DNA from: an uncultured bacterium
Lineage (GTDB): Bacteria > Cyanobacteriota > Cyanobacteriia > Cyanobacteriales > Microcystaceae
DNA: 64,000 nt
Assembly: GCA_964623815.1 (NCBI GenBank)
Contig: CAZUVR010000002.1
Span: 48,576 to 112,575, forward strand
Direction: 5' to 3'
The position numbers were made by a program, and so were the translations under genes. Of this stretch, positions 14,175-64,000 are shown one piece after another. The notes beneath the pieces are model-generated. The model was not told where the DNA came from. It worked only from the letters and a program-made list of their open reading frames with translations, and made no database searches. Each line of letters starts with the position of its first letter. The stretch's first letter is position 1.

Positions 14175-14234
14175 ACTCTTGTTGATAACCCCAATTTGAT
14201 ATTTAATGCAGATGATACAGTTTAAACCATCGTT

Positions 14235-19135: not shown

Positions 19136-19140
19136 AGAAT

Positions 19141-19794: not shown

Positions 19795-19813
19795 AGGTTT
19801 TTGACTCCTTAAA

Positions 19814-29129: not shown

Positions 29130-29132
29130 AAA

Positions 29133-29372
29133 TTAGGTTTTGATAGTACGACGGGCGGGACGGAAATTGAGGAAAGGGCTGAGTAACAACATTCCAGGGA
29201 AGAAGAAGGACATGAGAAAATACATGAAGCCTCTTTCAAAGGAACTGGCTACGTACCATCTGGTGTTCAGGTAGAAGTAAACTGCAGCCGGAATGATCAA
29301 TAAGTAGAGAACGCTCAAAACTAGATATAACAGAGCTACCGATAGGGAGGGGTTGGCTAAAATTGATTGCAT
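29133..29372 (-). CDS. ndhL: NAD(P)H-quinone oxidoreductase subunit L
   Basis: 79 aa with two TM helices. [23 protein letters not shown] and the genomic position next to DUF3007 and trpA fit cyanobacterial NdhL. Confidence 0.6.
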
Positions 29373-41822: not shown

Positions 41823-41823
41823 A

Positions 41824-44824: not shown

Positions 44825-46485
44825 AATTCGAGATAACTTTATCGGGGGTTTTCCAACGTCTGCCCGTAGATGATGAAAAGAAGGCGGCGAGTTTAGAAGA
44901 TTGGCTGAGTTCGATACGGGGGGCGGCGCAGGAAGTTAGGGGGGCTAACCTATCCAATCTCTACCGTGATTTCGGTTTGGGTTTTCTCCCGGGCCGTAGC
45001 GTCGAGAAATTATTGAAACAGACGGATAGGGGCGATAACCTGTACTTACTAGATGGGCTTAAGCGTCTTTATCCTCTAGCCCAATATCCTAACCCTGGTT
45101 TCTGCCTCTACGAATATATATTCACCGGGGAAGGTTTTTGCTTGCGCCTCTCTCCCGATGACTCTCAATTACCCGCGTTTACCTCTGGGATTGTCGAGGG
45201 CAGTTACCGCCTCGTCATCGATAACTTCTCTCACCCCGGTATCTCCGTAGAATATTTAAAAAATTGGTATAGACTAATAAAAATATTTTGGGATTATTCA
45301 TCCTCCGTACAGTTAGAGAGGGCGATGATGTTTTCGGGGGGAGAGATATATTATTCGCCGCCCGCTCATCAGGAAATAAAAGTGATTGCTTCCGTCTCCG
45401 AGTTAAGCCCTACCGTACAATCGGCCCTATCTTATTTACGGGGTAACGTTGCCTGGGATGGGTTATCATCCCAGAGTCGGGATTTGATTAAAGAGTATCG
45501 AGAGAGATATTATTTTCCTCCGGTTTCCTTAGAGTTACCACCGAGTTTAGATATGGATACGGGGGAGGCCCAGCATACTTTAATTGTAGGGAAAGGGCAG
45601 AGGGAAAAGATAGAAGCGATCGTATCTTCGGCGGAGAGATTCCTACTGGTATCGAGTCATATTATAGAAGATAGAGCGATCGTAGAATTAATCTGTGATA
45701 AAGCTCTTACCCTCCCTGGCGGTGTCTGGATATTAACCGATACGAGAGACAGACTCATAGATAAAGTAGAATCCTCCCCCGCAGAAACCCGAGTCGATAG
45801 ATACGAACAAACTAACGTCAGGAAGCGAGAGTGTTTGAACTTATTATTGGAAGCCGGAGTATCTATTAGAGGCGGCGCATTCCATCTCAAAACCATCATC
45901 TCCGAAAATGAGGCTTATTTAGGCTCGTGTAATTTGACTCGGGGCAGTTTAGATATTAACGGCGAGTCGGGCTTAATCTGTCGGCATACCCAAACCCATC
46001 AGGGTTTATACCGTTATTTCCTCAAGTGCTGGCAACACCTCGCTCGACACGAAATCTGCCCGACTCCCGGCGGATTACTACGGCGAGATTTACCCCGCGC
46101 TGCCCCCATAGCCTTCGGTAGCGAAACCCTTCTCACCCCCGCTCAATACAAGTCGGATTTAAAAAAATCTCTCATAGAAGGTAATCAACCGGTAACTATA
46201 TATACTCGCGGCTTGAGTATGGATGAGGAATTAGAATCGTTACTGCGATTCCGCCGCCCGAGGATATATATGGATGTGGAGGGATACAAAGAAGAAAAAA
46301 CCTTCCCCGTTTATTATCGCCCGAAACTTCACGCCAAGATTACCCTCATCGGTGACGACATCGCCTATATAGGAGGCGTTAACTTTCAATTCGACCGCGA
46401 CAGTTTGAAGTTAATCGATTTGATGTACAAAACCACCGACACATCAGAAATCCGGCAAATTCAGCAAAACCTACCAAACCTGTAA
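44821..46485 (+). CDS. phospholipase-D family (HKD-motif) nuclease-like protein
   Basis: 554 aa with two divergent HKD motifs, FHLKTIISENEAYLGSCNLT and LHAKITLIGDDIAYIGGVNF (H.K, then acidic residue, then G[SG].N). Its start overlaps the helicase stop in an ATGA. Confidence 0.65.
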   Translation: MKFEITLSGVFQRLPVDDEKKAASLEDWLSSIRGAAQEVRGANLSNLYRDFGLGFLPGRSVEKLLKQTDRGDNLYLLDGLKRLYPLAQYPNPGFCLYEYIFTGEGFCLRLSPDDSQLPAFTSGIVEGSYRLVIDNFSHPGISVEYLKNWYRLIKIFWDYSSSVQLERAMMFSGGEIYYSPPAHQEIKVIASVSELSPTVQSALSYLRGNVAWDGLSSQSRDLIKEYRERYYFPPVSLELPPSLDMDTGEAQHTLIVGKGQREKIEAIVSSAERFLLVSSHIIEDRAIVELICDKALTLPGGVWILTDTRDRLIDKVESSPAETRVDRYEQTNVRKRECLNLLLEAGVSIRGGAFHLKTIISENEAYLGSCNLTRGSLDINGESGLICRHTQTHQGLYRYFLKCWQHLARHEICPTPGGLLRRDLPRAAPIAFGSETLLTPAQYKSDLKKSLIEGNQPVTIYTRGLSMDEELESLLRFRRPRIYMDVEGYKEEKTFPVYYRPKLHAKITLIGDDIAYIGGVNFQFDRDSLKLIDLMYKTTDTSEIRQIQQNLPNL

Positions 46486-46489
46486 TCCT

Positions 46490-48805
46490 ATGACATACCT
46501 TTATCATCTCGACTCCTATATCGATTTTTATGCCGATACCGCGATATACAACCAGGAAAACCTCAGCCCGTCTGCCCAATCCTATAAAAATTTTCTCACA
46601 GGTAAGGGGCAATCTGGATATAGATGGGATACGGGGCTATCGGAAGAATTATCCATCGCCGATAACGGGCTGAAAAGATTAGGGATAGAGATAGGGCAAG
46701 ATGGAAGTAATCGGCGTTTATACGTTATCCCGGATAATATCAATCTGCTGGCGTTAAGAAACCTTATCGGCATCGGCGACACTTATATATATAAGACTGC
46801 TTATTATTACTGGAATAATCTCAGGCAAATACTCAAGTTTGCCGATTTAAACAAACCCGTAACTTTTATCGATTTGAATAGTCTCGGCGGCGATTGTGTA
46901 TCTTCGATTAATTTCGCGCGTCATCAAAGTTGTGAGTATCCTATTCCTATCCTCGATAACCGTAATAAAGAAACAGAAAATCACAATTTCTCGGCGCGGG
47001 AGATTTATAATAACATCCTGGAAGAGTTAGCCAAAGAAATCCTCAAGCCTTATCATTCCAAATTGCAGAGTTATGAAACTTGCCAGCAACATCTAGTTAC
47101 CGGGTGGAAGAAGCGAAAATTATTACAATCGTTGAAATTAGATAGCCCATCGATAGTTATTCCCTGCGAAATCCTGCAAGGCGAGAAAGTTTATTACAAG
47201 GCTTTGCCCTTAGCGAAAGAGAGAATAGAAAAAACTATACTCAATCATATTAAACCAGCTTTAGAGGAATTGCGATCGCTCTCCTCAAACCCGGTGGTTA
47301 TCAATCCCTATGAGTGTTTACATCTCTCACCTCGGGAAAATATAACCGTTTTACCCTTTAGATGTCTCAATTTCCCGCAGGTTTGGCAATCGAGGCGAGA
47401 AAAATACTTTCCCTTATTCGGACAGTATTTAGAACAAATAGAATTTGAGGTTAAAGATGAAAATAAGCAATCTTTATGGCTCAAGCTTTTCTCAGAAGAT
47501 GAGCAAGAGAATATTTTTTATGAAGGAGATGGACGGGAAAAAACATTTATAGGTCAGATTAAAGAAAAAGGGCAAAATTATTTTAAGCTAAAATCTAAAA
47601 TATCACGGTTGCCTATAAAAATTAACGGTAAATCTTACAAGATAAATGGAGAGGAACAAGTATATAAGATAAGCCATACCAACGAAATAAAAGAAAGTGA
47701 ATCTATAAATATCCGTATAGAATTTATAATTAATGTTGGCTCAACACCTAAATTAAAAGCAACTAATTGTAGTGACAATTTAGAAATTCAATCAGAACTA
47801 GTCACTATACCTAAGCTGACATTTATTCCCTTAGAGCGTTTAAAAGAAGCGAGGGATAAAAAATTATCTTCTGAACAAGTTGAGAAAATAGAATCTGTAA
47901 TTAGCTTAGTGGGCGAGTTGGCAAGCAGATCTAGAATTTCCAATTTAAGCATTCAACGAGATGACAAAATAAGAGAAATATATACTATTATCAAACCTAT
48001 ATATGATAAATTGAGAAAAACTAACAAAAAAGAATCAGATATTTTATCAAATCTTAATAACAAGTGTTATCCTTTACTTGAAGATTTATTAAATAATATT
48101 TATCTTCAAGATATTGTTAATTTAATTAGAGATTATATGAGCATCACAACTATTGATATTTCCACCGATCTCAGAAAGAAAATATCTGACCATATGAATA
48201 TACTTTTCATTTTTATAGGCAAACTATATCAATTTTCTAAAGTTTTGCCTTTAGATTATTTTCATGAAACTAGCAATATAAACAGTGGTATCAAGATATA
48301 CAAGAGAGAATATTATTATTTTTTAGCTAGATCTAGCTACACGGAGGAGCGACAAATAAAGTATTTTAAACTATTCAACATGAAAGACTGGACAGGGAAA
48401 TTTTATTATTATAATAAACACTACTTATGGGGTTATGGACGTGTTTTACTTTGGTATTTTAACTATAATTACGATAATATTAAAAATTCTATATCGTATT
48501 ATCAGCATTTTCAAGATTTATGTAGTTATTTAATAAGGCATCAATCAAGCTTAGAAAAAGAGAACAAAACCAATGCTTTTCTTTGTTTAATATATTTATT
48601 AAATTTTAGAGAAAAAGATTTAGGATTTTGCACTTTAAATACTAAAGAATATAGATTGGGGCAAGAAGTGATTAATAGATATACAACAGAAAAAATTACT
48701 TTGAGAGCGGTATCTGAAAAAAAAGCTCTCAATCAATATTTTCAAGAACTTTTAGAGGGAACGATGAGCGAGGCAGAGATCGGAGGTTTATTAGAATTGG
48801 ACTAA
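46490..48805 (+). CDS. hypothetical large protein; 3' half markedly AT-rich
   Basis: 771 aa starting 5 nt after the PLD gene stop. No recognisable motif. The C-terminal ~450 aa are K/N/I/Y-rich and coincide with a drop in GC (~47.4-48.8 kb). Confidence 0.55.
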   Translation: MTYLYHLDSYIDFYADTAIYNQENLSPSAQSYKNFLTGKGQSGYRWDTGLSEELSIADNGLKRLGIEIGQDGSNRRLYVIPDNINLLALRNLIGIGDTYIYKTAYYYWNNLRQILKFADLNKPVTFIDLNSLGGDCVSSINFARHQSCEYPIPILDNRNKETENHNFSAREIYNNILEELAKEILKPYHSKLQSYETCQQHLVTGWKKRKLLQSLKLDSPSIVIPCEILQGEKVYYKALPLAKERIEKTILNHIKPALEELRSLSSNPVVINPYECLHLSPRENITVLPFRCLNFPQVWQSRREKYFPLFGQYLEQIEFEVKDENKQSLWLKLFSEDEQENIFYEGDGREKTFIGQIKEKGQNYFKLKSKISRLPIKINGKSYKINGEEQVYKISHTNEIKESESINIRIEFIINVGSTPKLKATNCSDNLEIQSELVTIPKLTFIPLERLKEARDKKLSSEQVEKIESVISLVGELASRSRISNLSIQRDDKIREIYTIIKPIYDKLRKTNKKESDILSNLNNKCYPLLEDLLNNIYLQDIVNLIRDYMSITTIDISTDLRKKISDHMNILFIFIGKLYQFSKVLPLDYFHETSNINSGIKIYKREYYYFLARSSYTEERQIKYFKLFNMKDWTGKFYYYNKHYLWGYGRVLLWYFNYNYDNIKNSISYYQHFQDLCSYLIRHQSSLEKENKTNAFLCLIYLLNFREKDLGFCTLNTKEYRLGQEVINRYTTEKITLRAVSEKKALNQYFQELLEGTMSEAEIGGLLELD

Positions 48806-48874
48806 AAGATAATATAAAGTCGGTGAGGATAGAGATGCGGACTAGTAGAATAGTGAATATATAACAGCATAATC

Positions 48875-49519
48875 ATGATGGCTCAAACTTTACTAAAATT
48901 TCCTTCTAGGACAGTCTTAACCGGGGTGCGGTGGCAAACTTATCAAGGACTGCTGAGCGATTTAGCGGAGAATCCTGGTAAAAGACTAACATACGATCAA
49001 GGCATATTAGAGATCATGACTCCACTGCCGGAACACGAAATTAATAAAGGCTTCTTAAGCAGGCTGGTACAGACAGCGACTGAGGTATTGGGGTTAGAAG
49101 TCTTAAGCCTCTGTTCTACAACCTTAAGCCGGGAGGACTTACAGAAAGGGATTGAACCCGATGAGTGTTATTACATTACGAACGAGGCTCTAGTAAGGAA
49201 TAAGACCTATTTTAATTTTAGCGTCGATCCGGCTCCCGACTTAGCGATCGAAGTAGATATTACCAGTAGTTCTCTCAATCGGCTAGGAATTTACGCCGCT
49301 TTAGAAGTCAGTGAATTATGGCGATTCGACTGCGAGAATTTATCGATTTATTGTTTGCAATCTGGAAATTACCGAGAGGGGGAAAAGTCTAGGATTTTAC
49401 CGATTCTTTCCAAAACGATAATTTTGGAGTTTTTAAGAAAAAGGGGCGAAATGGGAGAAAATGCTTTACTTAAAGAGTTCCGTCAACGGTTACAAACTAT
49501 TGACCAGGAAACCAGATAA
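48875..49519 (+). CDS. Uma2-family (DUF820) putative restriction endonuclease-like protein
   Basis: 214 aa with a PD-(D/E)xK-like core in the Uma2 arrangement (LTYDQGILEIMTPLPEHEINKGFL...DLAIEVDITSSSLNRLGIYAALEVSELW). Confidence 0.7.
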   Translation: MMAQTLLKFPSRTVLTGVRWQTYQGLLSDLAENPGKRLTYDQGILEIMTPLPEHEINKGFLSRLVQTATEVLGLEVLSLCSTTLSREDLQKGIEPDECYYITNEALVRNKTYFNFSVDPAPDLAIEVDITSSSLNRLGIYAALEVSELWRFDCENLSIYCLQSGNYREGEKSRILPILSKTIILEFLRKRGEMGENALLKEFRQRLQTIDQETR

Positions 49520-49555
49520 AATTACTTCAGAGAGACTGCTTCGGTCATAGAAAGG

Positions 49556-50278
49556 CTAGGGAGAATTAGCTTGATTTGTTAATACCCACTTAAGAAATGC
49601 GTCTCCTATTCCTGGTTGTCCGTCTTGATTAACTTTATTTTTATATTCGTTCAAGATTATCCATTGATTATCTATAACTATAGTGCCGTTTATTTGTATT
49701 TCTCTCAAGTATTGTCCAGTGCGTAACTTACACTCACTGGTAACTTGAGGACAATCTCTCCCATTAGCGGCGATTAAAACATTAGTATCAATGATGATAG
49801 CCAATTCTCCTCTACGGCCTACATCCTGTGGTTTTTCTCCTGCCCAAGAGTAAATTCTTTTTGGATACTCTTTCAGAGGGCCGAGATAATAGAGTTTTTC
49901 AAAGGCTTGCTCATAGGCTAAAGTGAAGAAGGGTAAAAAATCGGCATTTTGAAAGTAATTAACTGGTTGGTTTGGGAATCCATAATGTTTAAGTGGTGGT
50001 GGTAGGGTTAGATATTTATCTGTGCTACTTATAATTTTATAAACCTCTGATTTAAGTTCGTAATTTAATAAATTATATTCTGATTTTTTCTGTTCGCCTG
50101 TATTTAAAACCCGTTGACGATCGCTTGATTCAACAGTCTGTTTTAAAAGCAGAAAGAATTGGATGATGCTAGATTTTCCCGAGCTGTTATTTCCGAAAAA
50201 TCCAGTGATATTGGCGAAGGAGATATTTCCGGTATCTTGCCAAGATTTAAAATTTTTAAATTTGATAGTTTTAAACAT
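49556..50278 (-). pseudogene. truncated AAA (RecF/OLD-like, AAA_15-type) ATPase N-terminal fragment with PIN-like tail; probable gene remnant
   Basis: 240 aa. The N-terminus IKFKNFKSWQD...ITGFFGNNSSGKSSI is the Walker-A region of AAA_15/OLD-type ATPases, but no Walker B or C-terminal domain follows. The tail AIIIDTNVLIAANG resembles a PIN-domain N-terminal strand. Too short for either full domain. Confidence 0.4.
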
Positions 50279-50404: not shown

Positions 50405-51712
50405 ATGATACCCTCCTCCCTCTGTTACTCGCTCCTGTTACTAAGCGCCCTAATGGCCTTCCTAATCGCCGCGGTGAGCAACTTAAATCTCGGCCTCTTA
50501 GCATTAGCCCTTCTCGACGCGATTATCGTAACCCTCACCATCATTGACATACTAAGGGTGAGAAATCAAACCATAGGAGTTAAACGCTTATCCAACACTC
50601 GCCTCTCAGTAGGTAGAGACAACCCGATGACACTTCAGGTAACAGGTAGTAGATACGAAGCCGAAGTAATTATTAAAGATGGTTATCCCCGAGAATTCCA
50701 CGTCTCGAAAGACGCTTTCTGGATTAAAGTCAAAGCTCACAGTAAATCCTGCCTAACCTATACTATAAAACCCGATCGCAGGGGTCGAGTCACATGGGAT
50801 ACTATTTCTGTCCGCCAGAGAGGGAGATGGGGGTTAGGCTGGTACGCATGGCAAACCCACACCGGCGAAGAAGTGACAATTTACCCGGATTTAATGACCA
50901 TACGCGCTCTATCAATCCGCCTCACCCTAGAAAACACCGGAAGTATGAGACGAGCGCGACGACTCGGCACCGGTACGGAATTCGCCGAGTTAAGGGAATA
51001 CAACCGGGGGGATGACTTACGCTTCATGGATTGGAAGGCTACAGCCAGAAGAAACACCCCCTTTATCAGAGTCTTAGAACCAGATAGGGAACAATCCCTG
51101 ATCATACTCCTAGATAGGGGACGTTTGATGACCTCGCGGGTGCGGGGTTTATTACGCTTCGACTGGGGTTTAAACGCCGCCCTCTGCCTCGCTACCGCCG
51201 CCCTGCATCGCGGTGATAAAGTAGCAGTGGGCGTATTCGATCGAGAGATGACCACATGGATACCCCCTCAGCGCGGTCAATCCCATCTCGGACATCTGAT
51301 CGAGCAACTCTCACCCCTACAACCGGTTTTATTAGAGCCAGATTATGCCTCTGCCGTCTCCTCCCTCGTCAATCACCAATCTCGCCGCGCCCTGGTGGTA
51401 TTGATCACCGATATTGTCGATGCCACCGCCTCCTCGGAATTATTGGGAGCCATGACCCGATTAGCCCCCCGCTATCTCCCCTTTTGCGTCACCCTCCGCG
51501 ATTGTGTAGTGGATACTATCGCTTGCACAGAGAGCGACGAGGCTCGCAAAGCCTATGAAAGAGCCGTCGCTTTAGACCTATTATCCCAACGGGAGAACGT
51601 CTTCGCCCGCCTCAAGTCCAAGGGGGTGTTAGTATTGGACGCTCCCGCCGACGCTATCAGTGAAACCCTAGTCGATCGCTATCTGACCCTGAAAGCTCGC
51701 TCTCTTTTGTGA
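50405..51712 (+). CDS. DUF58 domain protein (vWA-like, MoxR-associated family)
   Basis: The N-terminus has two TM helices. The DUF58 signature FAELREYNRGDDLRFMDWKATARRNTPFIRVLEPDREQSLIILLDRGRLM is present. Confidence 0.8.
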   Translation: MIPSSLCYSLLLLSALMAFLIAAVSNLNLGLLALALLDAIIVTLTIIDILRVRNQTIGVKRLSNTRLSVGRDNPMTLQVTGSRYEAEVIIKDGYPREFHVSKDAFWIKVKAHSKSCLTYTIKPDRRGRVTWDTISVRQRGRWGLGWYAWQTHTGEEVTIYPDLMTIRALSIRLTLENTGSMRRARRLGTGTEFAELREYNRGDDLRFMDWKATARRNTPFIRVLEPDREQSLIILLDRGRLMTSRVRGLLRFDWGLNAALCLATAALHRGDKVAVGVFDREMTTWIPPQRGQSHLGHLIEQLSPLQPVLLEPDYASAVSSLVNHQSRRALVVLITDIVDATASSELLGAMTRLAPRYLPFCVTLRDCVVDTIACTESDEARKAYERAVALDLLSQRENVFARLKSKGVLVLDAPADAISETLVDRYLTLKARSLL

Positions 51713-51713
51713 T

Positions 51714-52742
51714 ATGCTAGAACAAAATAGCCATACCCGTGCCGATAGTTTAAAAGCAGGTCATAATCGTAACCGAATAAAGATGTTACCGCCTCCGGGG
51801 AAAGCACCTTACGGTTATCGCCGGGGTAAAGATAAATACATCATCGATAAAAGTACCGCCCCAGTCGTCAAAGAATTTTTCGAGCATTTTCTTCGTTACG
51901 GTTCCCTACGAGGGGCAGTGAAATTTTTAGAGAAGCGTTTCGGTAAAAAGATAGCCCTGTCAACCGGTAGAAACTGGCTGACGAATCCCGTGTATAGGGG
52001 GGATTTACAGTATAAAACCAGGGATATTATCACCGATACCCACGCGGCGCTAATTTCGCGGGAAACGGCGGCGGCGATCGATCGACTCCTCCGCAGTCAT
52101 CGAAAACTAGCGCCCAAAACCTCCAGCGCTAAACGCAGTCTCGCGGGCTTAGTTTTCTGCACCACCTGTCAATCGCCTTTCACCGTCACCAAGGTCAAAC
52201 CCAAGGGTAAAAAAACCGAATACCTATATATCCGCCCGACTCAATGCCCGCGTAACCCCCATTGTAGAAGCCTCAATTATCAATCCGTACTCGGGAAGGT
52301 TATCGAAGCTATCTGTAAGGAATTACCGCTTACAGTCTCCAAATTAACCCTACCTAATTTAGAAAATGTTAGGAATCAAATAATAGAAGAGATCAGAGAG
52401 AAAGAAGCGATAATTAATCGTCTTCATCAATTGCAAGATGAGGGAATATTAGATGAAGCTAGTAAAGATTTAAGGCAATATAATTTAAAAACCGAGATAG
52501 CCCGATTACAGCTACAATTTAACGGGTTGCCTCCTGGTGATTTGAAAATCATCACTCAATCTGTTTGTTTACCGCGTTTCTGGGAAGATTTATCGGAAGA
52601 AGAGAGACGGTTTTATTTTCGGGAGTTTATCGAGAGAGTAGAGATAGATTATGGAAATAGTGAAAATTATCAATTGAGAATTATTTTTGTTTTCGAGAGT
52701 ATGATTGAACCACAGAGACACAGAGGGCACAGAGGAGATTGA
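51714..52742 (+). pseudogene. large-serine-recombinase remnant (Recombinase domain + zinc ribbon + coiled coil, catalytic resolvase domain absent)
   Basis: GKAPYGYRRGKDKYIIDKSTAPVVKEFFEHFLRYGSLRGAVKFLEKRFG...GRNWLTNPVYRGD matches the 'Recombinase' domain. LAGLVFCTTCQSPF...RPTQCPRNPHC is the Zn-ribbon. No Ser-nucleophile resolvase domain precedes it, because the DUF58 gene ends 2 nt upstream. Confidence 0.55.
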
Positions 52743-52868
52743 CACGGAAAGAAAGTAAAGGAAAAAGGGAGAAAACGAAGAGCTACTTGGAAAGGGTCTT
52801 AAGATGGAAGAGGAAGGATTGAGACAGATGTATACCTCTCCTTTCAAAGTGAGCAAGAGGTAATAATC

Positions 52869-54320
52869 ATGCCTAAAACAGTAGTAATCGATCCCGTGAC
52901 GCGCATCGAAGGCCATGCCAAAATATCCATTTATCTCGACGACGGCGGCAAAGTCGATGATGTGCGCTTTCACGTAGTCGAATATAGAGGTTTTGAAAAA
53001 TTTTGTGAAGGTCGTCCGATGTGGGAGATGGCTGGGATTACCGCCAGAATTTGCGGGATATGCCCAGTGAGTCACCTGCTCTGTGCGGCTAAAACCGGCG
53101 ATAAAATCTTAGCGGTAGCGGTGCCGCCAGCGGGTGAAAAACTCCGTCGCTTGATGAATTTGGGGCAGATAACCCAATCCCACGCTCTGAGTTTCTTCCA
53201 TCTTAGCAGTCCCGATTTCCTTTTAGGTTGGGATAGTGACCCAGCGAAGAGAAACGTCTTCGGCTTGATCGAACACGATGCGGAATTAGCCCGCAGCGGT
53301 ATCCGGTTACGCCAATTCGGACAGAAAATTATCGAGTTATTGGGAGCAAAAAAAATTCACCCGGCTTGGTCAGTACCTGGGGGTGTACGTTCTCCATTAT
53401 CCGATGAAGGGAGACAATGGATTAAAGAGCGTCTACCGGAATCTAAAGATAGTATCCGCAACGCCTTAAATCTCTTTAAAGGGTTGCTAGACGGTTTGAG
53501 TGAAGAAGTAGCCGCCTTCGGAGAATTTCCATCCCTATTTATGGGATTGGTGGGTAAAGATGGCGAGTGGGAACATTACGGCGGACATATTCGTTTTACT
53601 GATAGTCAGGGGAATATAGTAGCCGATAATCTCAGCGAGGATAATTATCGGGATTACATCGGGGAATCAGTGGAAAAATGGTCTTACTTGAAATTCCCTT
53701 ACTATAGACCTTTAGGTTATCCCGATGGAATTTATCGAGTCGGGCCCCTAGCGCGATTGAACGTCTGTAGTCATTTCGGCACACCAGAGGCCGATCGAGA
53801 ATTAGAAGAATACCGTCAACGAGTCGGAGGTGTGGCCACATCTTCTTTCTATTATCACTACGCCCGATTAGTAGAGATTTTAGGGGCGTTAGAGGGGATA
53901 GAAAAGTTAGTAGATGACCCCGATATTATCTCATCTCGAACCCGCGCCGATGCCGGTATTAATAATCTCGAAGGCGTAGGCGTTAGTGAAGCACCTCGGG
54001 GAACCTTATTCCATCACTATAAAGTGGATGAAAATGGTTTAATTGAAAAGGTTAATTTAATCGTCGCCACTGGCAATAATAACCTAGCGATGAATAAAAC
54101 CGTCAAACAGATCGCTCAACATTACATCACTGATTCAGATATTACTGAAGGGATGCTAAACCGAGTCGAGGCGGGGATTAGGGCTTACGACCCATGTTTA
54201 AGCTGTTCCACCCACGCCATAGGACAAATGCCTTTGCATATTCAATTAATTGCTCCGAATGGTGAAGTTATCTCCGAAAAATATAGGGGTACAAATAATT
54301 TGCCACTGACTAAGCTTTAG
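52869..54320 (+). CDS. hoxH: [NiFe] bidirectional hydrogenase large subunit
   Basis: 483 aa. The N-terminal Ni-binding motif is RIEGHAKI...[10 protein letters not shown] and the C-terminal motif is [13 protein letters not shown]. The length and ends are typical of cyanobacterial HoxH. Confidence 0.85.
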
Positions 54321-55101: not shown

Positions 55102-56658
55102 TCATTGTGATTTAAAACTATTTTTCCATAAAGAGAAGGGGAAAGTAAAAATAAATCCTAAGACGAAGCCACTTATATGAGCTAATAGACTAACTTGAGG
55201 GGTATGATAGTCTACGAAAAACTGTATACCCAAGATGATAAGGAGCAGTAAAATTCTCCTGAGAGCGAACTGGGATCTATTCCTCAACCAATCCCTAACA
55301 TAAAAGGCTAAGATAGCCCCTATCAATCCCATAATAGCCGCCGAAGCTCCTACAAGCATGGTATCTAAAAGCTGATTCCGTCTGGCTAATAAAGTGAAAA
55401 TCAGTAACGAACCCGTGCCAGCGGCGAAATAGATGAAAGAGAAAAATATTCTACCGAGAATAAATTCCGCTATGCGGCCGATGAAAATTAAACCTAACAT
55501 ATTAGTGGCGAAATGAAACCAACCAAAATGGAGAAAATTAGCCGTGATAATGCGCCACCATTCTCCTTGAAAAACCGCAGATGGAACTAAAGCACCTAAC
55601 TTATAAAGAGTTGACTCATCCTGATTACCACCGAGCCAGATTTCGGCAACGAAGGCAGAAGTATTAATTAACAATAGGGATAAGGTGATATAAGGGATGC
55701 TCTTTTGAATAGATAAGTAAGAATGAGAGCGCAATTCCTGACTGAGTTCACCCGTGATTCGCTGTAGTATAGTTAAAGATGAGGAATCGAGTACGGAATT
55801 GGGGTCTGGAGGAGGGTAACACAAACGCCAATCGATCGCGTTACTTAAGATAAAATCTCTCTCTAAACGAATATCGAGTAATTGATGACGGCCTGCATAT
55901 TTATTAGCTCCGATTAATTGGACGCTAGATAACCAGAATTTTTGTAAATATTTAGGATAAAAACTCAAAAAACTATTAAATAACTGTTTTACTTGTAAAA
56001 TCTGACCGCAGAAAACTAAAACGTATAAACGGGCTAAATTAAGTTGATTGATGGTAGCTTTCTTCTTTAATAAAGGATAACGATCGGCGAAGACACTCAG
56101 TAATTGATTTAGTTTTCCGGTCTCTCCTAAAGCACGAATATAATAAATTAACAGTTCTGGATTCTGGCTTAGAACGGAGCGGGGGAGCTTTTCCATCCAA
56201 TCTAAACACTTATCCCAATCTGCTTTAATAAAATAAACAAGTACACGGGCTTGATAATCATCTTCGGAATAACTTTCTAAGCTTGCCACAGCCGAAAACA
56301 TATCGCCTCTCTGGGCAGTTTCTAGAATATTTAAAAGTTTAGGTAATCGTAAAAAACTAGGGAAGGGATGTAACCAGATTGAACGAGAAATTAGTATTCT
56401 TGCCTCTCGATACCTTTGTTGGTCAATTAACCAGTTTGTTCGGGAAAAAATCCTTTTAGGAACGGATAAAAAGACAATTAATGCTATCAATCCCAGCCAA
56501 CCTGCTTGCATGGGTAAAAACAGAAATAGAGATAAGGTAAGTAATAAAACCCCGAGAGAAACCCAAAGCCATTCAAAAGAGGAAGAGAAGAGAGAAGAAA
56601 GGATAGATAGGGAAGAGGAGATACAAACCAGGCAAACTAAAAGATAGTTTAAGAGCAT
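55102..56658 (-). CDS. rhomboid-family intramembrane serine protease with N-terminal extension
   Basis: The C-terminal rhomboid core is EWWRIITANFLHFGWFHFATNMLGL...GASAAIMGLIG, with a GxSG catalytic Ser and a downstream His (LAHISGFVLG). The N-terminal ~300 aa add 2 TM helices and TPR-like helices. Confidence 0.8.
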   Translation of the reverse strand: MLLNYLLVCLVCISSSLSILSSLFSSSFEWLWVSLGVLLLTLSLFLFLPMQAGWLGLIALIVFLSVPKRIFSRTNWLIDQQRYREARILISRSIWLHPFPSFLRLPKLLNILETAQRGDMFSAVASLESYSEDDYQARVLVYFIKADWDKCLDWMEKLPRSVLSQNPELLIYYIRALGETGKLNQLLSVFADRYPLLKKKATINQLNLARLYVLVFCGQILQVKQLFNSFLSFYPKYLQKFWLSSVQLIGANKYAGRHQLLDIRLERDFILSNAIDWRLCYPPPDPNSVLDSSSLTILQRITGELSQELRSHSYLSIQKSIPYITLSLLLINTSAFVAEIWLGGNQDESTLYKLGALVPSAVFQGEWWRIITANFLHFGWFHFATNMLGLIFIGRIAEFILGRIFFSFIYFAAGTGSLLIFTLLARRNQLLDTMLVGASAAIMGLIGAILAFYVRDWLRNRSQFALRRILLLLIILGIQFFVDYHTPQVSLLAHISGFVLGFIFTFPFSLWKNSFKSQ

Positions 56659-56778: not shown

Positions 56779-56844
56779 TAGGGGTTAGGAATTGGAGGTT
56801 ACTTCTATTACCCCAACTCCCAACTCCCGACTCCCAACTCCCGA

Positions 56845-56846
<2 letters not shown>
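56779..56846. repeat. STRR-like heptamer tandem array (CCCAACT/CCCGACT x ~4.7) with an upstream ggaattgg motif
   Basis: The array cccaact cccaact cccgact cccaact cccgatt lies immediately 3' of katG. It is preceded by ttaggggttaggaattggagg, which shares ggaattagg/ggaattgg with the MITE at 30.6 kb. Confidence 0.7.
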
Positions 56847-59076
<2,230 letters not shown>

Positions 59077-59397
59077 CTAGAGGCCAGGTATCGTAAGTAA
59101 ATAGCACCTGGCTAATTATCCAGATGTGCAAGAGTAATTAGTAAATAAGTATGAATTAGTTTCCTAGAGTGATTATCTAAAAATCTTAACTATTACATTA
59201 GCTAAGTATTAAATATTTCAACATTTCTTGAGATTTCACTAACGATGAATTCTTCTAGATTATATCCCCTTGAGATAAATTTTTATACTGTATTTATATC
59301 TTGTAATCATGGTTAACTAGACCGTGATTACAATGATCGACCATAACAAATTCTGTAATAAAGTCGGAGTGCGAAGGCGATGAAAACGGGGGTGTAT

Positions 59398-62300
59398 TCA
59401 TTGCCATAAGAGAACTGAAGGAACCATTTCGGGAGCCGCGAGACGTAATAGTTGATAGCCGATCCCCGCCGTTCCTTGAAAAAAGCCCGGGTTATGTATC
59501 GCGTCAGGGATTTCATCGGTGAGGGCGAAACCGCCCTTCCGCTTCGCCGTCGCCACCCTAACCGCCGCTTGCTGGTAAGCCATCTCGCCTAAATCTCGAC
59601 GGTTTAAAACCTGAGAAGCCACCAGAAGGGTTTCTAAGCGGCCGAAATTACCGCAACAGAGATGATCGATCGGCTGTAGACCGAGTTTGAGAGTGGTTTT
59701 TAGGGCGGTATCGATGTCCTGCCTGATAGCATCACTATCGAGGCTGGATAAACCCCCCAAACGGGCCAGCCCGATTCCGGGGGCACCGTGACACCACGCG
59801 ATCATAAACGAGGGGGAGGATTCCACATCCTGCCAGTTCTCCCGCCGCGCATCGAACAGACTACTCTCAAAGCCGATCGCTTCCCGGGCCGCCTGTAGAA
59901 ATTTCTCTTCCGGGCAGACCTCGTATAATCTGATCAGGGCCAAAGCGATACCGGCGGCACCGTGGGATATACCGGTAGTTAACTCCCCATCGATTACGGG
60001 CCAAGCCCGCCATCCCGACGTACTTTCCACCCGGTGGCTCAGCAGATGTGCGCCGCAGTTTCGCGCCCGCTCTAGTACGGATTCATCTTTTCTCACTCCG
60101 TATAGATCGAGCAGAGCCACGATCGCACCGGCTGCACCACCGATCAAATCGAAGGAGCGATCGAGCGCTACGGTTTCCGGTGTCAGAGTGTCTGCCAGTT
60201 TCAAAGCCACTTTGAGCAGCTTTGGTTCTTCGATCAAGTTGGCTATCTTCGCCAGGCAGTAAACGATCGAGCCTATCCCCGCACCTGCCCCGATGCCGAT
60301 TTGCCGGGCGAAGCGCAGCCCGCCAGCGGTGTCGATATTCAGGTAATCTGCCACCGGCCCTCCTAAGGCGCTCAAACATAGGCGGCGAAACCGTTCCTCT
60401 CTGGTCAAGGCCCAAAGCGCGGCTAGAAACAGAGCGATCCCAGAAACCCCGTCATAGAGGTTATCCCCCAGGGGTTGTAATTGATAGCGGCGGTGGGCGG
60501 GGAGATAGGCCAGACCAATCCAACTCCGATGGCCAGTGACGGTAGAGATCGCGTTCTTCTCTAGATCGATCGCTATCTCGATAGCCGTAGACAGGGCTTC
60601 AGTCTCGCTCAGGGGGGATATATGCACATCCGCGATGTCCTCCACCCGATCGCTCAAGCTCATGCCGGAGGCTTTTTGAGAGTACAGAGAGCCACGAATC
60701 AACTGCATCTGTAAGGCTAAATCTTCTTCCCCGAGTCGTCCTAATCTCTCCCTTCCCGTTTCGTAACTCATCCCCTCAAAATAGCCCGGAATCCATGCCC
60801 CCTCAGGGATGCCCAGCCCATCACCCCCGGTGTTAGCGATAAAAAAGGGTACATCCATACGCTCTAGAGATTCTATCTCCCCCGCCAATACCGCCCGGGG
60901 GGCGGAATCGGGAAAACTTCGCGCGAGGGCTTCAAATTCGATCGATCTATCTATCCCCTCCTGTAATAATCGAGGAGCGATGGTCTTGATCAGGAGTTGG
61001 CCGTAAATGTCGCTCGGGCGGAAGAGGAAACGTATGTCGCGCCCGGCGAATAGCTTTAACGGGCCGTCTCCCCTGGTTAGTACATGAGAATTATACTGTA
61101 GACAGCGATACATTTTCTCGAATCCTTCTAGGAGCCGATTGCTGTAATCGGAGGGTGATAGCCTTTTCCCTTGGAGCCAGAGAGTATTTTTCAGGGGCTT
61201 TTGTGTTTTCAGCTCGTAGCTTAATTTCATCTCGTCGGTATTTACCATCTCCCATTTTTTGTATCGGAGGGGGGTGTTTATATCCGTACCGCCCAAACCG
61301 CTAACGTCTTCTAGAATTCCCCCCGTCGATTCCCACCGGGGTAAAAGCCCGCATTGAAGAACCGAATCGAAAAAGCGCTCTTCGATCGATGACAGGGCCC
61401 CCCTTTGTTCTTCCGCCACCCTGACGCGGGGGTTAAAGAGGGTTTCCAGATCGATCAAGATCGGTTGTTCTCCGGCAGAGATAATATTTTCCTCGTGACA
61501 ATCGTTACCTCTAAGAATATAGAGCAGGGCCAGTAACATTCCCGCCCGCTCGTAATAGTTACCGGCTTCGGTTGTGGAATTACAGGGCTGGTGGTGGATG
61601 AATTCCATCCAGCCGTGTGTATCTCGATCGATCACCTTACATAATTGCAGGGGTAGTAAATTCGGCTGTTGATTACACCAGTGCAGGAGTTGAAAGAAAC
61701 CCGCTTCCATCCCCATTCCCCTCGGTTTATAGATCATCGTCCGGCCCCCGGCGAAGGTGACTCCAGTTACGGAGCGTCTCCGATTATGGGGTTCGCTAAG
61801 GTCGAGCTGGATTTCCGTCACCTGAGCGAGTTTTGCGCCGAAGGTGGTTTCTAAAAGGGGTAAATCCTCCGCGAGCCGCCCCAAGAATTCGGCTTTTTCA
61901 TCGATCCAGTGTTCGATCGAGACGGACATCAATCGCGCTATCACACTGTATTTTTGGAAGAAAGCGATCATTTTTCCTCCCCGCATTGCCTCGATGAAAG
62001 CACGGTAATAACCCGTATTTTTTCCTTCGGTTTCTAGAAGCGGAGAAAGATTTTCTTTCCTCCCGCGATCGAATTCTTCGTATAAGCTGGCGGTAATTAA
62101 AAGGTGTAATTTGTGAAGTAATTTCCTCACGATAGATGTCTGTACTGCGACGGTCAACAGTTGCCATTTTTCCCCTACCCGTTCCAGTAATTTTTGACGG
62201 GCTACCTGTACAAAAGGTAAGTAAATATCCTCGAAAGGAATGGGGGAGTGTGGATCTAATATTGCCGCCTCATCTTTTTGCATGGGAGCTTCTACAAGTT

Positions 62301-62598
62301 CTCGAAACATAGTCACCCAAGGGGGCAGATATTTCTCATCGGCGAGACGCACGTTACCCAGTAATAAGCTTAATTGCTCTTTATTCAGATCGTATTGAGC
62401 GAGGCGTAAGGCGAATTTCTCCTCATCACTTCCCCCTACTAAAGCTTTCCATCTATTCAATCTCTGCTCAATGAGCGATCGATCTTGCCGTTCATCATCG
62501 GATAGGAAAGCACCGCTCGATCTTTCCGAGAGGCTACTAGCTCTCTCGAAGATTTTTATCAAGTCCTGTGCGGAAATTTTCCGATTAAAATTCACCAT
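59398..62598 (-). CDS. lanM: class II lanthipeptide synthetase (LanM/ProcM-like)
   Basis: 1066 aa. The N-terminal ~650 aa form the LanM dehydratase region (DUF4135-like). The C-terminal LanC-like cyclase has GISHGAAGIALAL, WCHGAPGIGLARL, the Zn-ligand CCGNFGRLETLL and HNPGFFQGTAGIGYQLLRL. Confidence 0.85.
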   Translation of the reverse strand: MVNFNRKISAQDLIKIFERASSLSERSSGAFLSDDERQDRSLIEQRLNRWKALVGGSDEEKFALRLAQYDLNKEQLSLLLGNVRLADEKYLPPWVTMFRELVEAPMQKDEAAILDPHSPIPFEDIYLPFVQVARQKLLERVGEKWQLLTVAVQTSIVRKLLHKLHLLITASLYEEFDRGRKENLSPLLETEGKNTGYYRAFIEAMRGGKMIAFFQKYSVIARLMSVSIEHWIDEKAEFLGRLAEDLPLLETTFGAKLAQVTEIQLDLSEPHNRRRSVTGVTFAGGRTMIYKPRGMGMEAGFFQLLHWCNQQPNLLPLQLCKVIDRDTHGWMEFIHHQPCNSTTEAGNYYERAGMLLALLYILRGNDCHEENIISAGEQPILIDLETLFNPRVRVAEEQRGALSSIEERFFDSVLQCGLLPRWESTGGILEDVSGLGGTDINTPLRYKKWEMVNTDEMKLSYELKTQKPLKNTLWLQGKRLSPSDYSNRLLEGFEKMYRCLQYNSHVLTRGDGPLKLFAGRDIRFLFRPSDIYGQLLIKTIAPRLLQEGIDRSIEFEALARSFPDSAPRAVLAGEIESLERMDVPFFIANTGGDGLGIPEGAWIPGYFEGMSYETGRERLGRLGEEDLALQMQLIRGSLYSQKASGMSLSDRVEDIADVHISPLSETEALSTAIEIAIDLEKNAISTVTGHRSWIGLAYLPAHRRYQLQPLGDNLYDGVSGIALFLAALWALTREERFRRLCLSALGGPVADYLNIDTAGGLRFARQIGIGAGAGIGSIVYCLAKIANLIEEPKLLKVALKLADTLTPETVALDRSFDLIGGAAGAIVALLDLYGVRKDESVLERARNCGAHLLSHRVESTSGWRAWPVIDGELTTGISHGAAGIALALIRLYEVCPEEKFLQAAREAIGFESSLFDARRENWQDVESSPSFMIAWCHGAPGIGLARLGGLSSLDSDAIRQDIDTALKTTLKLGLQPIDHLCCGNFGRLETLLVASQVLNRRDLGEMAYQQAAVRVATAKRKGGFALTDEIPDAIHNPGFFQGTAGIGYQLLRLAAPEMVPSVLLWQ

Positions 62599-62682
62599 AG
62601 ATTTATCTCACTAAGTTAGGAAAAAACTAGCCCAGAGTAAGTAATACTAAATCCGTTTTTCATAGTAACCTTTTCCGATCCA

Positions 62683-62752
62683 GGGAGTAGAGAGTAGGGA
62701 GTAGGGAGTAGAAATATTTATCCCGATTCCCGACTCCCGACTCCCGATTCCC
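62683..62752. repeat. STRR-like heptamer hairpin (GGGAGTA x4 ... CCCGACT x4 inverted arms)
   Basis: gggagta gagagta gggagta gggagta - gaaatatttat - cccgatt cccgact cccgact cccgatt. The arms are imperfect reverse complements. It lies in the lanM upstream region and is the inverse-orientation relative of the 56.8-kb array. Confidence 0.7.
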
Positions 62753-62913: not shown

Positions 62914-64000
62914 CTAAGCCGCCCCCTGACATATCCAAGCACCCCAATAGTAGGGATGTTGCAAGGGGCACTCATCCAATCGCCCCGAAACTATTATTTC
63001 CCAATCTTCGCTATCGCATAATTTCTTCAGAATCTCCACACCCAGAGGAGTCTGCTTTAACTCGGCGACGGTAACACCACGAATATAATCTTGCGCTCGG
63101 GCCAAAGCCGCGGCCTTATTAGAGCCGTCAGCCCGTAAATATTCAAAGAACTTACCAATCAGTAAACTAGATTCTAAATCCGGGACTTTCCATAAACTCA
63201 TGATCAAAGTTCTGGCCCCCGCAACCGCGAAAGCCCGTCTCATACCGAATACTCCTTCACCCGCCGATGTATCCCCCTTACCAGTTTGACAGGCTATGAG
63301 AAATACGATCTCGGTTCCCGAAAAATTTTGCAGTAATATATCTTGAGCTAGGAGAAAACCTTTCCCCTGACTTTTACCTAACTTACCTCGGGAGAGAAAA
63401 GTATTAGCTCCAGCTAAAGCTAATCCCGATCGTAACATGGGATTTTCTGGACTCACCTGTAATAGTAAATTGCCAACCGCCGGCGAGGTAGGGAGGGGGG
63501 AAGATGGGGGTAAATATACGCCGTGGGTGGCGATGAAAAATATCTTCGGGCTTGGATACCGGTAAATTAGAGATTCTAAGGCTTCCTGTCCGGTATAGGC
63601 CCTCACTCCTAAATTTTCCGCGACCATCTCGCCGAGAATTCTCGTACCCGGGGCCCGTCGAAAGGCTCTATGAGCAATGTCGCGGGTTAAATCGGGACTT
63701 TGCCCGGTTAAAGTGACCGAGGCCCCATCTTCAACCCTGGTATATTGTAGATCGAAATCCGGATCGGCGATTATTAAAGGCGGTGATAGAGGCTCGGGCG
63801 GGGGTGAGGCGAGACTCAATATATCCCTACCGACGCTGAGGTAACTAACCGTATAAGAGTCGCTTAAAAAAGTGCCGTCTTCATCGACGGGAAGAATATT
63901 GAAAGGTATCAGATTTAAGTTACTATCCGGGGCGATGATGAGATGTTGGGCTTCTCCGAGATTGGGTAATAGGGGTGCCAATAGGGCCTGACTCAAATTC
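62914..64000 (-). CDS. CHAT-domain (caspase-like) protein, C-terminal part (5' end lies outside the window)
   Basis: The ORF is open to the window edge. The catalytic His and Cys regions resemble the CHAT/caspase fold (FIATHGVY...; IVFLIACQTGKGD...). Confidence 0.65.
   Translation of the reverse strand, partial: NLSQALLAPLLPNLGEAQHLIIAPDSNLNLIPFNILPVDEDGTFLSDSYTVSYLSVGRDILSLASPPPEPLSPPLIIADPDFDLQYTRVEDGASVTLTGQSPDLTRDIAHRAFRRAPGTRILGEMVAENLGVRAYTGQEALESLIYRYPSPKIFFIATHGVYLPPSSPLPTSPAVGNLLLQVSPENPMLRSGLALAGANTFLSRGKLGKSQGKGFLLAQDILLQNFSGTEIVFLIACQTGKGDTSAGEGVFGMRRAFAVAGARTLIMSLWKVPDLESSLLIGKFFEYLRADGSNKAAALARAQDYIRGVTVAELKQTPLGVEILKKLCDSEDWEIIVSGRLDECPLQHPYYWGAWICQGAA

What the first reader, a model, noticed from the sequence alone, without database searches (positions are those of the whole stretch)
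59398..62598. Orphan class II lanthipeptide synthetase (LanM) with no adjacent precursor, transporter or protease
A complete LanM with dehydratase and Zn-dependent LanC cyclase domains sits between katG and a CHAT protease gene. I could not find a Nif11/NHLP-type or any Cys/Ser/Thr-rich precursor ORF in either flank. This mirrors the prochlorosin arrangement (ProcM with remote ProcA precursors) and implies an unmined RiPP family elsewhere in the genome.
Basis: partly seen in the sequence, partly recalled or inferred. Interest (0 to 1): 0.6.

Follow-up and report, generated by a model that had tools for sequence, protein, structure and literature searches.

The report
Stand-alone ProcM-type lanthipeptide synthetase gene
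This is an intact gene for a well-known kind of peptide-cyclising enzyme (a class II lanthipeptide synthetase of the cyanobacterial ProcM type) sitting without its usual substrate, exporter and protease genes; that arrangement is uncommon among its closest relatives but is already known from other cyanobacteria.

Summary
Window 59398-62598 (-) encodes a full-length 1066-aa LanM (Pfam DUF4135 plus LANC_like; TIGR03897 868 bits against a cutoff of 304), lying between katG and a CHAT gene.

- **Enzyme state:** All phosphorylation residues and the zinc site are intact. The zinc site is the three-Cys "CCG" set that marks the ProcM clade. The only unusual catalytic residue is Glu269, where 38 of 39 relatives have Asp.
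- **No partner genes in the window:** There is no precursor, C39-ABC exporter, HlyD or S8 protease anywhere in the 64 kb. Precursor HMMs gave E of 2.9 or worse here, but found precursors in 8 of 9 relatives' loci.
- **Limit:** Only 1.4 kb upstream of lanM is visible, and I could not extend the sequence.
- **Relatives:** The nearest one (57% identity, from a metagenome) and the 46-47% Nostocales relatives all have precursors within 10 kb. These are NHLP-type or truncated-NHLP GG-leader peptides. This locus is therefore the exception in its subclade.
- **No sign of decay:** A relative-rate test against the sister enzyme is not significant.

Most likely the enzyme is active and works on precursors encoded outside the window. 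A stranded remnant cannot be excluded. It is a new member of a known kind, of modest interest.

The parts
59398..62598 (-). lanM: class II (LanM) lanthipeptide synthetase, 1066 aa, ProcM-clade type
   Evidence: ORF. Pfam DUF4135 plus LANC_like. TIGR03897 scores 868 bits against a cutoff of 304. phmmer to LicM2 6ST5 gives E 4e-88 and to CylM 5DZT gives E 4e-46. Nearest relative is P0002 at 57% identity; Nostocales LanMs are 44-48% identical.
60835..61950 (-). Dehydratase (kinase-like, DUF4135) domain, residues 217-588. Holds Lys291, Asp366, His368, Asn371 and Asp383 (phosphorylation) and Glu269, His271, Arg523 and Ser529 (phosphate elimination).
   Evidence: Pfam. Residue equivalence to CylM K274, D347, H349, N352, D364, D252, H254, R506 and T512 comes from the phmmer alignment and PMC4550811. 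Column counts are; alignment A1 numbering is one lower than true numbering, as checked.
61792..61794 (-). Glu269 codon: a conservative replacement of the P-loop Asp (CylM Asp252), one of four phosphate-elimination residues
   Evidence: 38 of 39 relatives have Asp at this column. The CylM role of this residue is from PMC4550811.
59407..60474 (-). LanC-like cyclase domain, residues 709-1064
   Evidence: Pfam LANC_like, E 2.9e-58.
59791..59793 (-). Cys936 codon (WCHG motif), Zn ligand 1
   Evidence: Invariant in 40 of 40 aligned LanMs. Coordinates checked.
59653..59658 (-). Cys981-Cys982 codons (LCCG motif), Zn ligands 2 and 3. This is the three-Cys 'CCG' signature of the ProcM clade.
   Evidence: Cys in 39 of 40 and 36 of 40 aligned sequences. 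Coordinates. The significance of three Cys ligands is from PMC13060382.
62644..62790 (.). Upstream intergenic palindromic element with two heptamer tandem arrays (62682-62712 and 62721-62752). Not coding. Three independent short-read assemblies break at this point.
   Evidence: Logan contig L001 maps to window 56815..62721.
62914..64000 (-). CHAT-domain gene (5' end beyond the window): a neighbour, judged not to be part of the system
   Evidence: Pfam CHAT, E 2e-52. Its closest homologues sit in unrelated contexts. It has no similarity to the upstream gene of the sister locus.
56845..59052 (-). katG catalase-peroxidase: a neighbour, not part of the system
   Evidence: Pfam peroxidase, E 7e-74. 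No relative's lanM locus shows katG.

Best explanation
The gene encodes an intact, probably active class II lanthipeptide synthetase of the ProcM clade. Mechanism, inferred from family knowledge: the N-terminal kinase-like domain phosphorylates Ser/Thr in the core of a leader-bearing precursor peptide and eliminates the phosphate to give dehydro-amino acids. The C-terminal cyclase domain, with Zn held by three cysteines, then adds Cys thiols to form (methyl)lanthionine rings. In this genome the gene has become separated from the partners that surround it in every close relative: GG-leader precursors of the NHLP or truncated-NHLP type, a C39-ABC exporter with HlyD, and often an S8 protease. The enzyme therefore most likely acts in trans on precursors encoded outside this 64-kb window. 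These could lie either just upstream beyond the CHAT gene or at remote loci, as with ProcM and the prochlorosin precursors. Shown here: gene integrity, family and clade membership, absence of partner genes in the window, and the cluster architecture of relatives. Inferred: catalytic activity, and the existence and type of the precursors.
For: - **Gene integrity and family:** Full-length ORF, same length as its sister (1066 aa), covering the entire TIGR03897 profile.
- **Catalytic residues:** Lys291, Asp366, His368, Asn371, Asp383, Arg523, Arg527 and Cys936 are invariant across 40 relatives. His879, Cys981 and Cys982 are conserved in 36-39 of the 40. Ser529 in place of Thr occurs in 10 of 40 relatives.
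- **Conserved columns:** Only 6 of 108 highly conserved columns deviate, and all six changes are conservative.
- **No rate acceleration:** Tajima relative-rate tests against sister P0002 with 10 outgroups give chi-square 0.1-2.9, none significant. This argues against long-standing loss of constraint.
- **ProcM clade:** The CCG Zn site marks the ProcM clade.
- **Precedent:** LanM homologues that share a genome with Nif11-type precursors without being clustered with them are documented (PMC2887384).
- **Relatives define the missing partners:** L008 has lanM, a C39-ABC transporter, an ABC transporter, HlyD and 3 short GG-leader precursors. L010, L012, L014 and L019 have NHLP precursors plus an S8 protease and a response regulator.
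- **Absence in the window:** None of these genes is present, with positive controls.
Against: - No precursor from this genome was identified.
- Three database NHLP precursors were picked on their source and contig signature. All three came from other samples.
- Every close relative examined is clustered with its precursors, so trans action would be an exception within this subclade.
- Glu269 replaces an Asp that is present in 38 of 39 relatives and is implicated in phosphate elimination in CylM. This could reduce dehydration efficiency.
- The query lineage is slightly, though not significantly, faster than its sister (93-110 against 78-88 unique changes).
- No expression evidence is available, and no convincing promoter was found upstream (uninformative for cyanobacteria).
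Confidence: 0.6

Rival explanations
1. Stranded remnant. A rearrangement or partial deletion broke up an ancestral lanM-transporter-precursor cluster, and lanM survives as an intact but functionless ORF that has not yet decayed.
For: All close relatives carry precursors and export genes within 10 kb, and none is present here. There is no synteny with the sister locus on either side. The gene is bracketed by repeat arrays at 56812-56842 and 62682-62752. A unique Asp-to-Glu change affects a phosphate-elimination residue. The lineage is rare: the nearest relative is 57% identical among 5.8 billion proteins, and no close copy was found in the species-representative genomes.
Against: The 3.2-kb ORF has no frameshift or premature stop. 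All catalytic and Zn residues are retained. All six deviations at conserved columns are conservative. The evolutionary rate is not significantly higher than in the cluster-embedded sister. Heptamer repeat arrays are ordinary intergenic features of filamentous cyanobacteria (my own knowledge).
Confidence: 0.27
2. Not an orphan at all. The cluster continues just upstream of the CHAT gene beyond position 64000, so the finding is an effect of the window edge. This is a sub-case of the best explanation.
For: Only 1.4 kb upstream of lanM is visible. In relatives, precursors lie 0.4-9 kb from lanM on either side, sometimes with unrelated genes between them. In L012 and L014 a CHAT-CHASE2 gene lies about 6-8 kb from lanM, beyond the precursor/S8 module.
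Against: The close homologues of this CHAT protein are not near lanM or RiPP genes. A palindromic repeat element and a terminator-like hairpin separate CHAT from lanM. None of the usually adjacent genes (S8 protease, response regulator, C39-ABC transporter) is seen on the 59-kb visible side.
Confidence: 0.18
3. The enzyme has been co-opted for a function outside RiPP biosynthesis, for example modifying a full-length protein or a small thiol, and so needs no leader peptide substrate.
For: The only support is the absence of a detectable precursor in the window.
Against: The sequence sits firmly inside a clade whose members are all cluster-embedded RiPP enzymes, with no domain gain or loss and no accelerated evolution. 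No partner suggesting another pathway is adjacent.
Confidence: 0.03

Closest known systems
ProcM / prochlorosin system of Prochlorococcus MIT9313 and marine Synechococcus (SyncM)
   Same: It is a class II LanM with the three-Cys (CCG) zinc site that defines the ProcM clade. The synthetase gene can lie away from its precursor genes (PMC2887384; PMC10783134 abstract).
   Different: ProcM serves many hypervariable Nif11-leader precursors. Here no precursor is known, and the near relatives use NHLP or truncated-NHLP leaders with fairly conserved two-Cys cores. The host is a filamentous, hormogonium-forming cyanobacterium (HpsA), not a picocyanobacterium. I did not measure sequence identity to ProcM.
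Metagenomic sister cluster (P0002, locus L008, JGI 3300078835)
   Same: It is the closest known LanM: 57% identity, the same 1066-aa length and shared small indels. It has the same CCG zinc site.
   Different: L008 is a complete cluster: lanM, an RRXRR (HNH-like) gene, a C39-ABC transporter, a second ABC transporter, HlyD, and three 67-71-aa GG-leader precursors. The window has none of these. The flanking genes are unrelated.
Nostocales NHLP/LanM clusters (Scytonema sp. PCC 10023 locus L010; loci L012, L014, L019; N. punctiforme WP_012411340.1)
   Same: These are LanMs 40-47% identical to the query, with the CCG site. The association of LanM with NHLP/Nif11 precursors in Nostoc was described in 2010 (PMC2887384).
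   Different: Those loci keep a recurrent module of NHLP precursor(s), an S8 peptidase and an AraC-type response regulator beside lanM. That module is absent here.
Characterised ProcM-clade or long-leader LanMs: NpuM (nostolysamides), OspM (landornamide), DprM, MppM
   Same: Same enzyme class. NpuM is reported to have the three-Cys ligand set and bidirectional cyclisation (PMC13060382). OspM and DprM modify NHLP-leader peptides (PMC12537861).
   Different: I compared none of them directly by sequence. The N. punctiforme LanM in my hit list (P0032) is WP_012411340.1, not NpuM WP_012412979.1. All of these enzymes are encoded next to their substrates.
CylM (PDB 5DZT) and LicM2 (PDB 6ST5), the structurally solved LanMs
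   Same: Both domains align end to end with LicM2 (E 4e-88), and the dehydratase domain aligns with CylM (E 4e-46). The kinase-like catalytic residues match.
   Different: LicM2 shows a Cys-His-Gly motif where the query has Cys-Cys-Gly. They act on short-leader precursors from Firmicutes.

Membership tests
Class II lanthipeptide synthetase (LanM) | Curated family model matched above its trusted cutoff over the full length | tested here: met
   TIGR03897 scores 868 bits against a cutoff of 304, covering profile 2-932 of 932. Pfam DUF4135 plus LANC_like.
Class II lanthipeptide synthetase (LanM) | Kinase-like dehydratase active site (CylM K274, D347, H349, N352, D364 equivalents) | tested here: met
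   Lys291, Asp366, His368, Asn371 and Asp383 are present and invariant in 40 of 40 relatives. Roles are from PMC4550811.
Class II lanthipeptide synthetase (LanM) | Phosphate-elimination residues (CylM D252, H254, R506, T512 equivalents) | tested here: inconclusive
   His271 and Arg523 are conserved. Thr is replaced by Ser529, as in 10 of 40 relatives. Asp is replaced by Glu269, whereas 38 of 39 relatives have Asp. Both changes keep the functional group, but the effect is untested.
Class II lanthipeptide synthetase (LanM) | Zn-binding cyclase site (two Cys plus a Cys or His) and the active-site His | tested here: met
   Cys936, Cys981, Cys982 and His879 are present.
Class II lanthipeptide synthetase (LanM) | Demonstrated dehydration and cyclisation of a LanA precursor | not testable with these tools
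   This needs co-expression or an in vitro assay with mass spectrometry.
ProcM clade of LanM | Three-Cys zinc ligand set (Cys-Cys-Gly instead of Cys-His-Gly) | tested here: met
   The LCCG motif is at residues 980-983. 36 of 40 aligned relatives share Cys-Cys. The criterion is stated in PMC13060382.
ProcM clade of LanM | Substrates carry long Nif11 or NHLP leaders ending in Gly-Gly | tested here: inconclusive
   This is true for relatives. The sister uses a 39-aa leader that aligns with the C-terminal part of NHLP. No substrate is known for this enzyme.
ProcM clade of LanM | One enzyme serving several dispersed precursors in the same genome | not testable with these tools
   The rest of the genome could not be retrieved.
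Complete class II lanthipeptide gene cluster | LanM with at least one precursor gene nearby, usually plus a C39-ABC exporter | tested here: not met
   None is present within 59 kb on the 3' side or 1.4 kb on the 5' side. The pipeline was validated on relatives. The region beyond position 64000 is unknown.

The most novel reading that the evidence does not exclude
A ProcM-clade synthetase is kept under purifying selection in a filamentous, hormogonium-forming cyanobacterium with no cluster of its own, serving dispersed GG-leader (NHLP-derived) precursors elsewhere in the genome. This would extend prochlorosin-style unclustered lanthipeptide biosynthesis from marine picocyanobacteria to this group, using a divergent enzyme lineage that is 57% identical or less to anything known.
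Probability: 0.3. Interest if true: 0.45.

Novelty: new member of a known kind. Interest (0 to 1): 0.27.

Why it matters
If the enzyme is active in trans, the genome holds lanthipeptide precursors that cluster-based mining tools would not link to a synthetase. The enzyme would also be a divergent, possibly substrate-tolerant ProcM-type catalyst of some use for peptide engineering. That is a useful lead for natural-product mining, but it does not open a new question. LanM enzymes, the three-Cys ProcM clade, NHLP/Nif11 precursors in Nostoc-type cyanobacteria and unclustered synthetase/precursor arrangements have all been described since 2010. If the gene is only a remnant, or the cluster continues beyond the window, the finding is ordinary.

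Tried and rejected
1. **Extending the sequence beyond position 64000.**
   - Exact-protein look-up of LanM returned only three short Logan contigs (SRR10912416-18), all of which break in the repeat 123 bp upstream of lanM.
   - A protein search with the partial CHAT ORF did not return the full-length self protein; the best hit was 48% identical.
   - A 61-mer from the window end had no match in the metagenome contigs.
   - The genome-collection scan found only 32-35% relatives in other phyla, not the source genome.

2. **Finding precursors from the same organism.** I searched the protein database with an alignment of relatives' precursors and got 499 hits, of which 120 were listed. I looked up the three whose source and contig signature best resembled that of the LanM. 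P0275, P0271 and P0249 all came from other samples.

3. **CHAT protease as a functional partner.** Rejected. Its nearest homologues lie in unrelated contexts, and the sister locus has an unrelated Peptidase_C14/FGE-sulfatase gene upstream.

4. **Recent horizontal transfer judged from composition.** lanM (GC 0.52, GC3 0.56) and katG (GC 0.54, GC3 0.57) are at the high end of the window (mean GC3 0.46, sd 0.07), but several other genes are as high. Not conclusive.

5. **Cys/Ser/Thr-rich small ORFs as unconventional precursors.** A heuristic scan listed many, nearly all inside larger genes. The one intergenic-edge candidate (29108-29239, -) has no family match and no leader or GG site. A regular-expression scan for ELSxxL...GG-type leaders found none.

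6. **Assuming the N. punctiforme hit P0032 is the characterised NpuM.** Checked and wrong; it has a different accession.

7. **Literature search for the conserved core C-terminus 'RNANDLA'.** It returned only unrelated name matches.
Full report
**1. What is there**

Window 59398..62598 (- strand) is a single uninterrupted ORF of 1066 codons.
- Pfam finds the LanM dehydratase domain DUF4135 at residues 217-588 (E 3.7e-110) and the LanC-like cyclase domain at residues 709-1064 (E 2.9e-58).
- NCBIfam TIGR03897 (type 2 lanthipeptide synthetase LanM) scores 868 bits against a cutoff of 304 and is matched over its whole length.
- Among solved structures it aligns end to end with LicM2 (6ST5, E 4e-88). 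Its dehydratase domain aligns with CylM (5DZT, E 4e-46).
- Downstream on the same strand is katG (56845..59052). Upstream is a CHAT-domain ORF (62914 to beyond 63996) that runs off the window.

**2. Is the enzyme intact?**

I aligned the protein with 39 homologues (alignment A1). I dropped the start codon by mistake, so A1 numbering is one lower than true numbering; this was verified.
- **Phosphorylation residues.** The CylM residues shown by mutagenesis to be needed for phosphorylation are K274, D347, H349, N352 and D364 (PMC4550811). They correspond to Lys291, Asp366, His368, Asn371 and Asp383 here, and all are invariant in the 40 sequences.
- **Phosphate-elimination residues.** Of the four (CylM D252, H254, R506, T512), His271 and Arg523 are conserved. 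Thr is replaced by Ser529, as in 10 of 40 relatives. Asp is replaced by Glu269, whereas 38 of 39 relatives have Asp.
- **Cyclase site.** His879 and the zinc ligands Cys936 (WCHG), Cys981 and Cys982 (LCCG) are present.
- **Conserved columns.** The protein deviates at 6 of 108 columns that are at least 95% conserved, always conservatively: L/F, L/I, D/E, L/M, A/C and L/I.
- **Rate of change.** Tajima relative-rate tests against its sister with ten outgroups give chi-square 0.1-2.9, none significant.

There is therefore no sign of decay. The only point worth testing is Glu269.

**3. Which kind of LanM?**

The second zinc motif is Cys-Cys-Gly, not Cys-His-Gly. According to PMC13060382, three Cys ligands distinguish the ProcM clade of cyanobacterial class II enzymes. 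36 of 40 aligned relatives share this motif.

The nearest protein among 5.8 billion is a metagenomic LanM, P0002 (57% identity, same length). Next come Nostocales enzymes at 44-48% (Scytonema sp. PCC 10023, Kalymmatonema, Tolypothrix), and then Nostoc enzymes at about 40%. The query and P0002 are sisters: each is 49% identical or less to the others, and they share small indels.

The N. punctiforme hit P0032 is WP_012411340.1, not the characterised NpuM.

**4. Are partner genes present?**

- The two flanking intergenic stretches hold no plausible peptide gene.
- Pfam/NCBIfam annotation of the whole window shows housekeeping and accessory genes. These include an hps polysaccharide locus, trpA, znuABC, a defence-like island, hoxH and a rhomboid.
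- There is no C39-ABC exporter, HlyD, subtilisin-type protease, or Nif11/NHLP protein.
- A leader-motif regular expression found nothing.
- HMMs built from 114 NHLP precursors, the three short-leader precursors of L008 and two Nif11 precursors gave no hit better than E = 2.9 among all 1800 six-frame segments.
- As a control, the same pipeline recovered precursors in 8 of 9 relatives' loci. Some were not used in training: three NHLP genes beside the Acidobacteriota lanM in L004 (E about 1e-19), and the L008 peptides detected with the NHLP model (E about 1e-6).

The absence is real for the 59 kb on the 3' side. On the 5' side only 1.4 kb can be seen.

**5. What relatives look like**

- **L008 (sister):** lanM, an RRXRR gene, a C39-ABC transporter, a second ABC transporter, HlyD, then three 67-71-aa peptides. 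Their leader is MN(A/T)DNQQNQIEQEILS.LELTEFPEGELSDRQLETAAGG, followed by 28-32-aa two-Cys cores.
- **L010 (Scytonema):** three NHLP precursors and an S8 peptidase lie upstream of lanM, and two Nif11 precursors and a radical SAM enzyme lie downstream.
- **L012, L014 and L019:** these repeat the module of NHLP precursor, S8 peptidase and AraC-type response regulator.
- **Other relatives:** This implies adjacency.

The short L008 leader aligns with the C-terminal part of the NHLP leader. Clustering is therefore the rule in this subclade and the window is the exception. The expected substrate is a GG-leader peptide of NHLP ancestry.

**6. Neighbours**

The CHAT gene is not a conserved partner. Its closest homologues (45-47% identity) sit in unrelated contexts. 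The gene upstream of the sister lanM is an unrelated Peptidase_C14/FGE-sulfatase protein.

Between CHAT and lanM lies a palindromic element with two heptamer arrays. A second heptamer array lies just downstream of katG. Logan contig L001 spans exactly the stretch between the two arrays, 56815-62721, and all three Logan assemblies break at the upstream array. This shows that these are multi-copy repeats.

Composition does not single out lanM as foreign.

**7. Interpretation**

The best reading (confidence about 0.6) is an intact, probably active ProcM-clade synthetase whose precursors and exporter are encoded outside the window. This includes the possibility (about 0.18) that they lie just beyond the CHAT gene.

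The main rival (about 0.27) is a cluster broken by rearrangement that left a not-yet-decayed orphan.

Unclustered LanM/precursor arrangements and LanM-NHLP/Nif11 systems in Nostoc were described in 2010 (PMC2887384). NHLP-specific LanMs have been studied mechanistically (PMC12537861).

**8. Limits**

I could not retrieve the remainder of the source genome or the sequence beyond position 64000. The attempt to find same-sample precursors failed.

**9. Verdict**

This is a divergent new member of a known enzyme clade in an arrangement with precedent. Interest is about 0.27.

Noticed in passing
L008:14937-16045; L010:7657-9614; L012:9111-9488; L014:9020-9388; proteins P0243-P0362: The NHLP precursors beside this LanM subclade do not have hypervariable cores. 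Of 113 cores (median 26 aa), 81 have exactly two Cys, often in twin C-x-x-(W/F)-(S/T)-like motifs with the Cys N-terminal to the Ser/Thr. 54 end in a conserved tail such as RNAN(D/N)L(A/V). I found no literature on this tail.
   Followed up: partly
L008:14937-16045: The three 67-71-aa precursors of the sister cluster carry a 39-aa leader. It aligns with the C-terminal third of the roughly 95-aa NHLP leader and is detected by the NHLP HMM (E about 1e-6). This looks like a natural truncation of the NHLP leader.
   Followed up: partly
window 56812-56842 and 62682-62752: Heptamer tandem arrays (CCCAACT x4.4; GAGTAGA x4 and TCCCGAC x4.6, the latter two inside a 147-bp palindromic element) bracket the katG-lanM pair. 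They coincide exactly with the ends of the short-read contig L001 (56815-62721).
   Followed up: partly
window 50405-54320: A XisF-like large serine recombinase ORF (51714-52742) matches only profile positions 130-463, so it lacks the N-terminal catalytic domain. It starts 2 nt after a DUF58/VWA gene (50405-51712). It sits just upstream of a HoxH-like (group 3) NiFe hydrogenase large subunit gene (52869-54320).
   Followed up: no
window 39615-50278: A defence-like island on one strand holds an AAA_5 ATPase plus a DUF2357 protein (McrBC-like), an AAA_30/AAA_12 helicase, a PLD-family nuclease, and a 771-aa ORF with no Pfam match and GC 0.33 (46490-48805). It continues with a Uma2 endonuclease and a 240-aa AAA_15/AAA_21 fragment with GC 0.35.
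   Followed up: no
window 8286-10589: A NACHT plus NCH2 STAND NTPase gene with markedly low GC (0.37 against a window mean of 0.46).
   Followed up: no
window 13179-16503: A 390-aa RuBisCO large-chain-like protein (14235-15407) lies next to a PLP-dependent enzyme and a GFO/IDH/MocA oxidoreductase. Its listed ORF overlaps the oxidoreductase ORF by 144 nt on the opposite strand, so one of the start codons is probably further in.
   Followed up: no
window 18026-25090: HpsA (1758 aa, NF038301, 572 bits) sits with a prepilin-type N-methylation-motif protein (19141-19893). This is a hormogonium polysaccharide locus and indicates a filamentous, hormogonium-forming cyanobacterial host.
   Followed up: partly
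window 55102-56658: A rhomboid protease with a roughly 350-aa N-terminal extension that has no Pfam match. It gives a weak, sub-threshold match to rhombosortase (51.6 bits against a cutoff of 84).
   Followed up: no
L024:299-4240: In another cyanobacterial genome (GCA_051861145.1), a close homologue of the window's CHAT protein lies next to a reverse-transcriptase-Cas1 fusion gene.
   Followed up: no
window 29108-29239 (-): A 43-aa ORF unusually rich in Cys and Ser (5 Cys, 11 Ser/Thr) overlaps the start of the DUF3007 gene. It has no family match, no leader and no GG site, and is probably spurious.
   Followed up: partly
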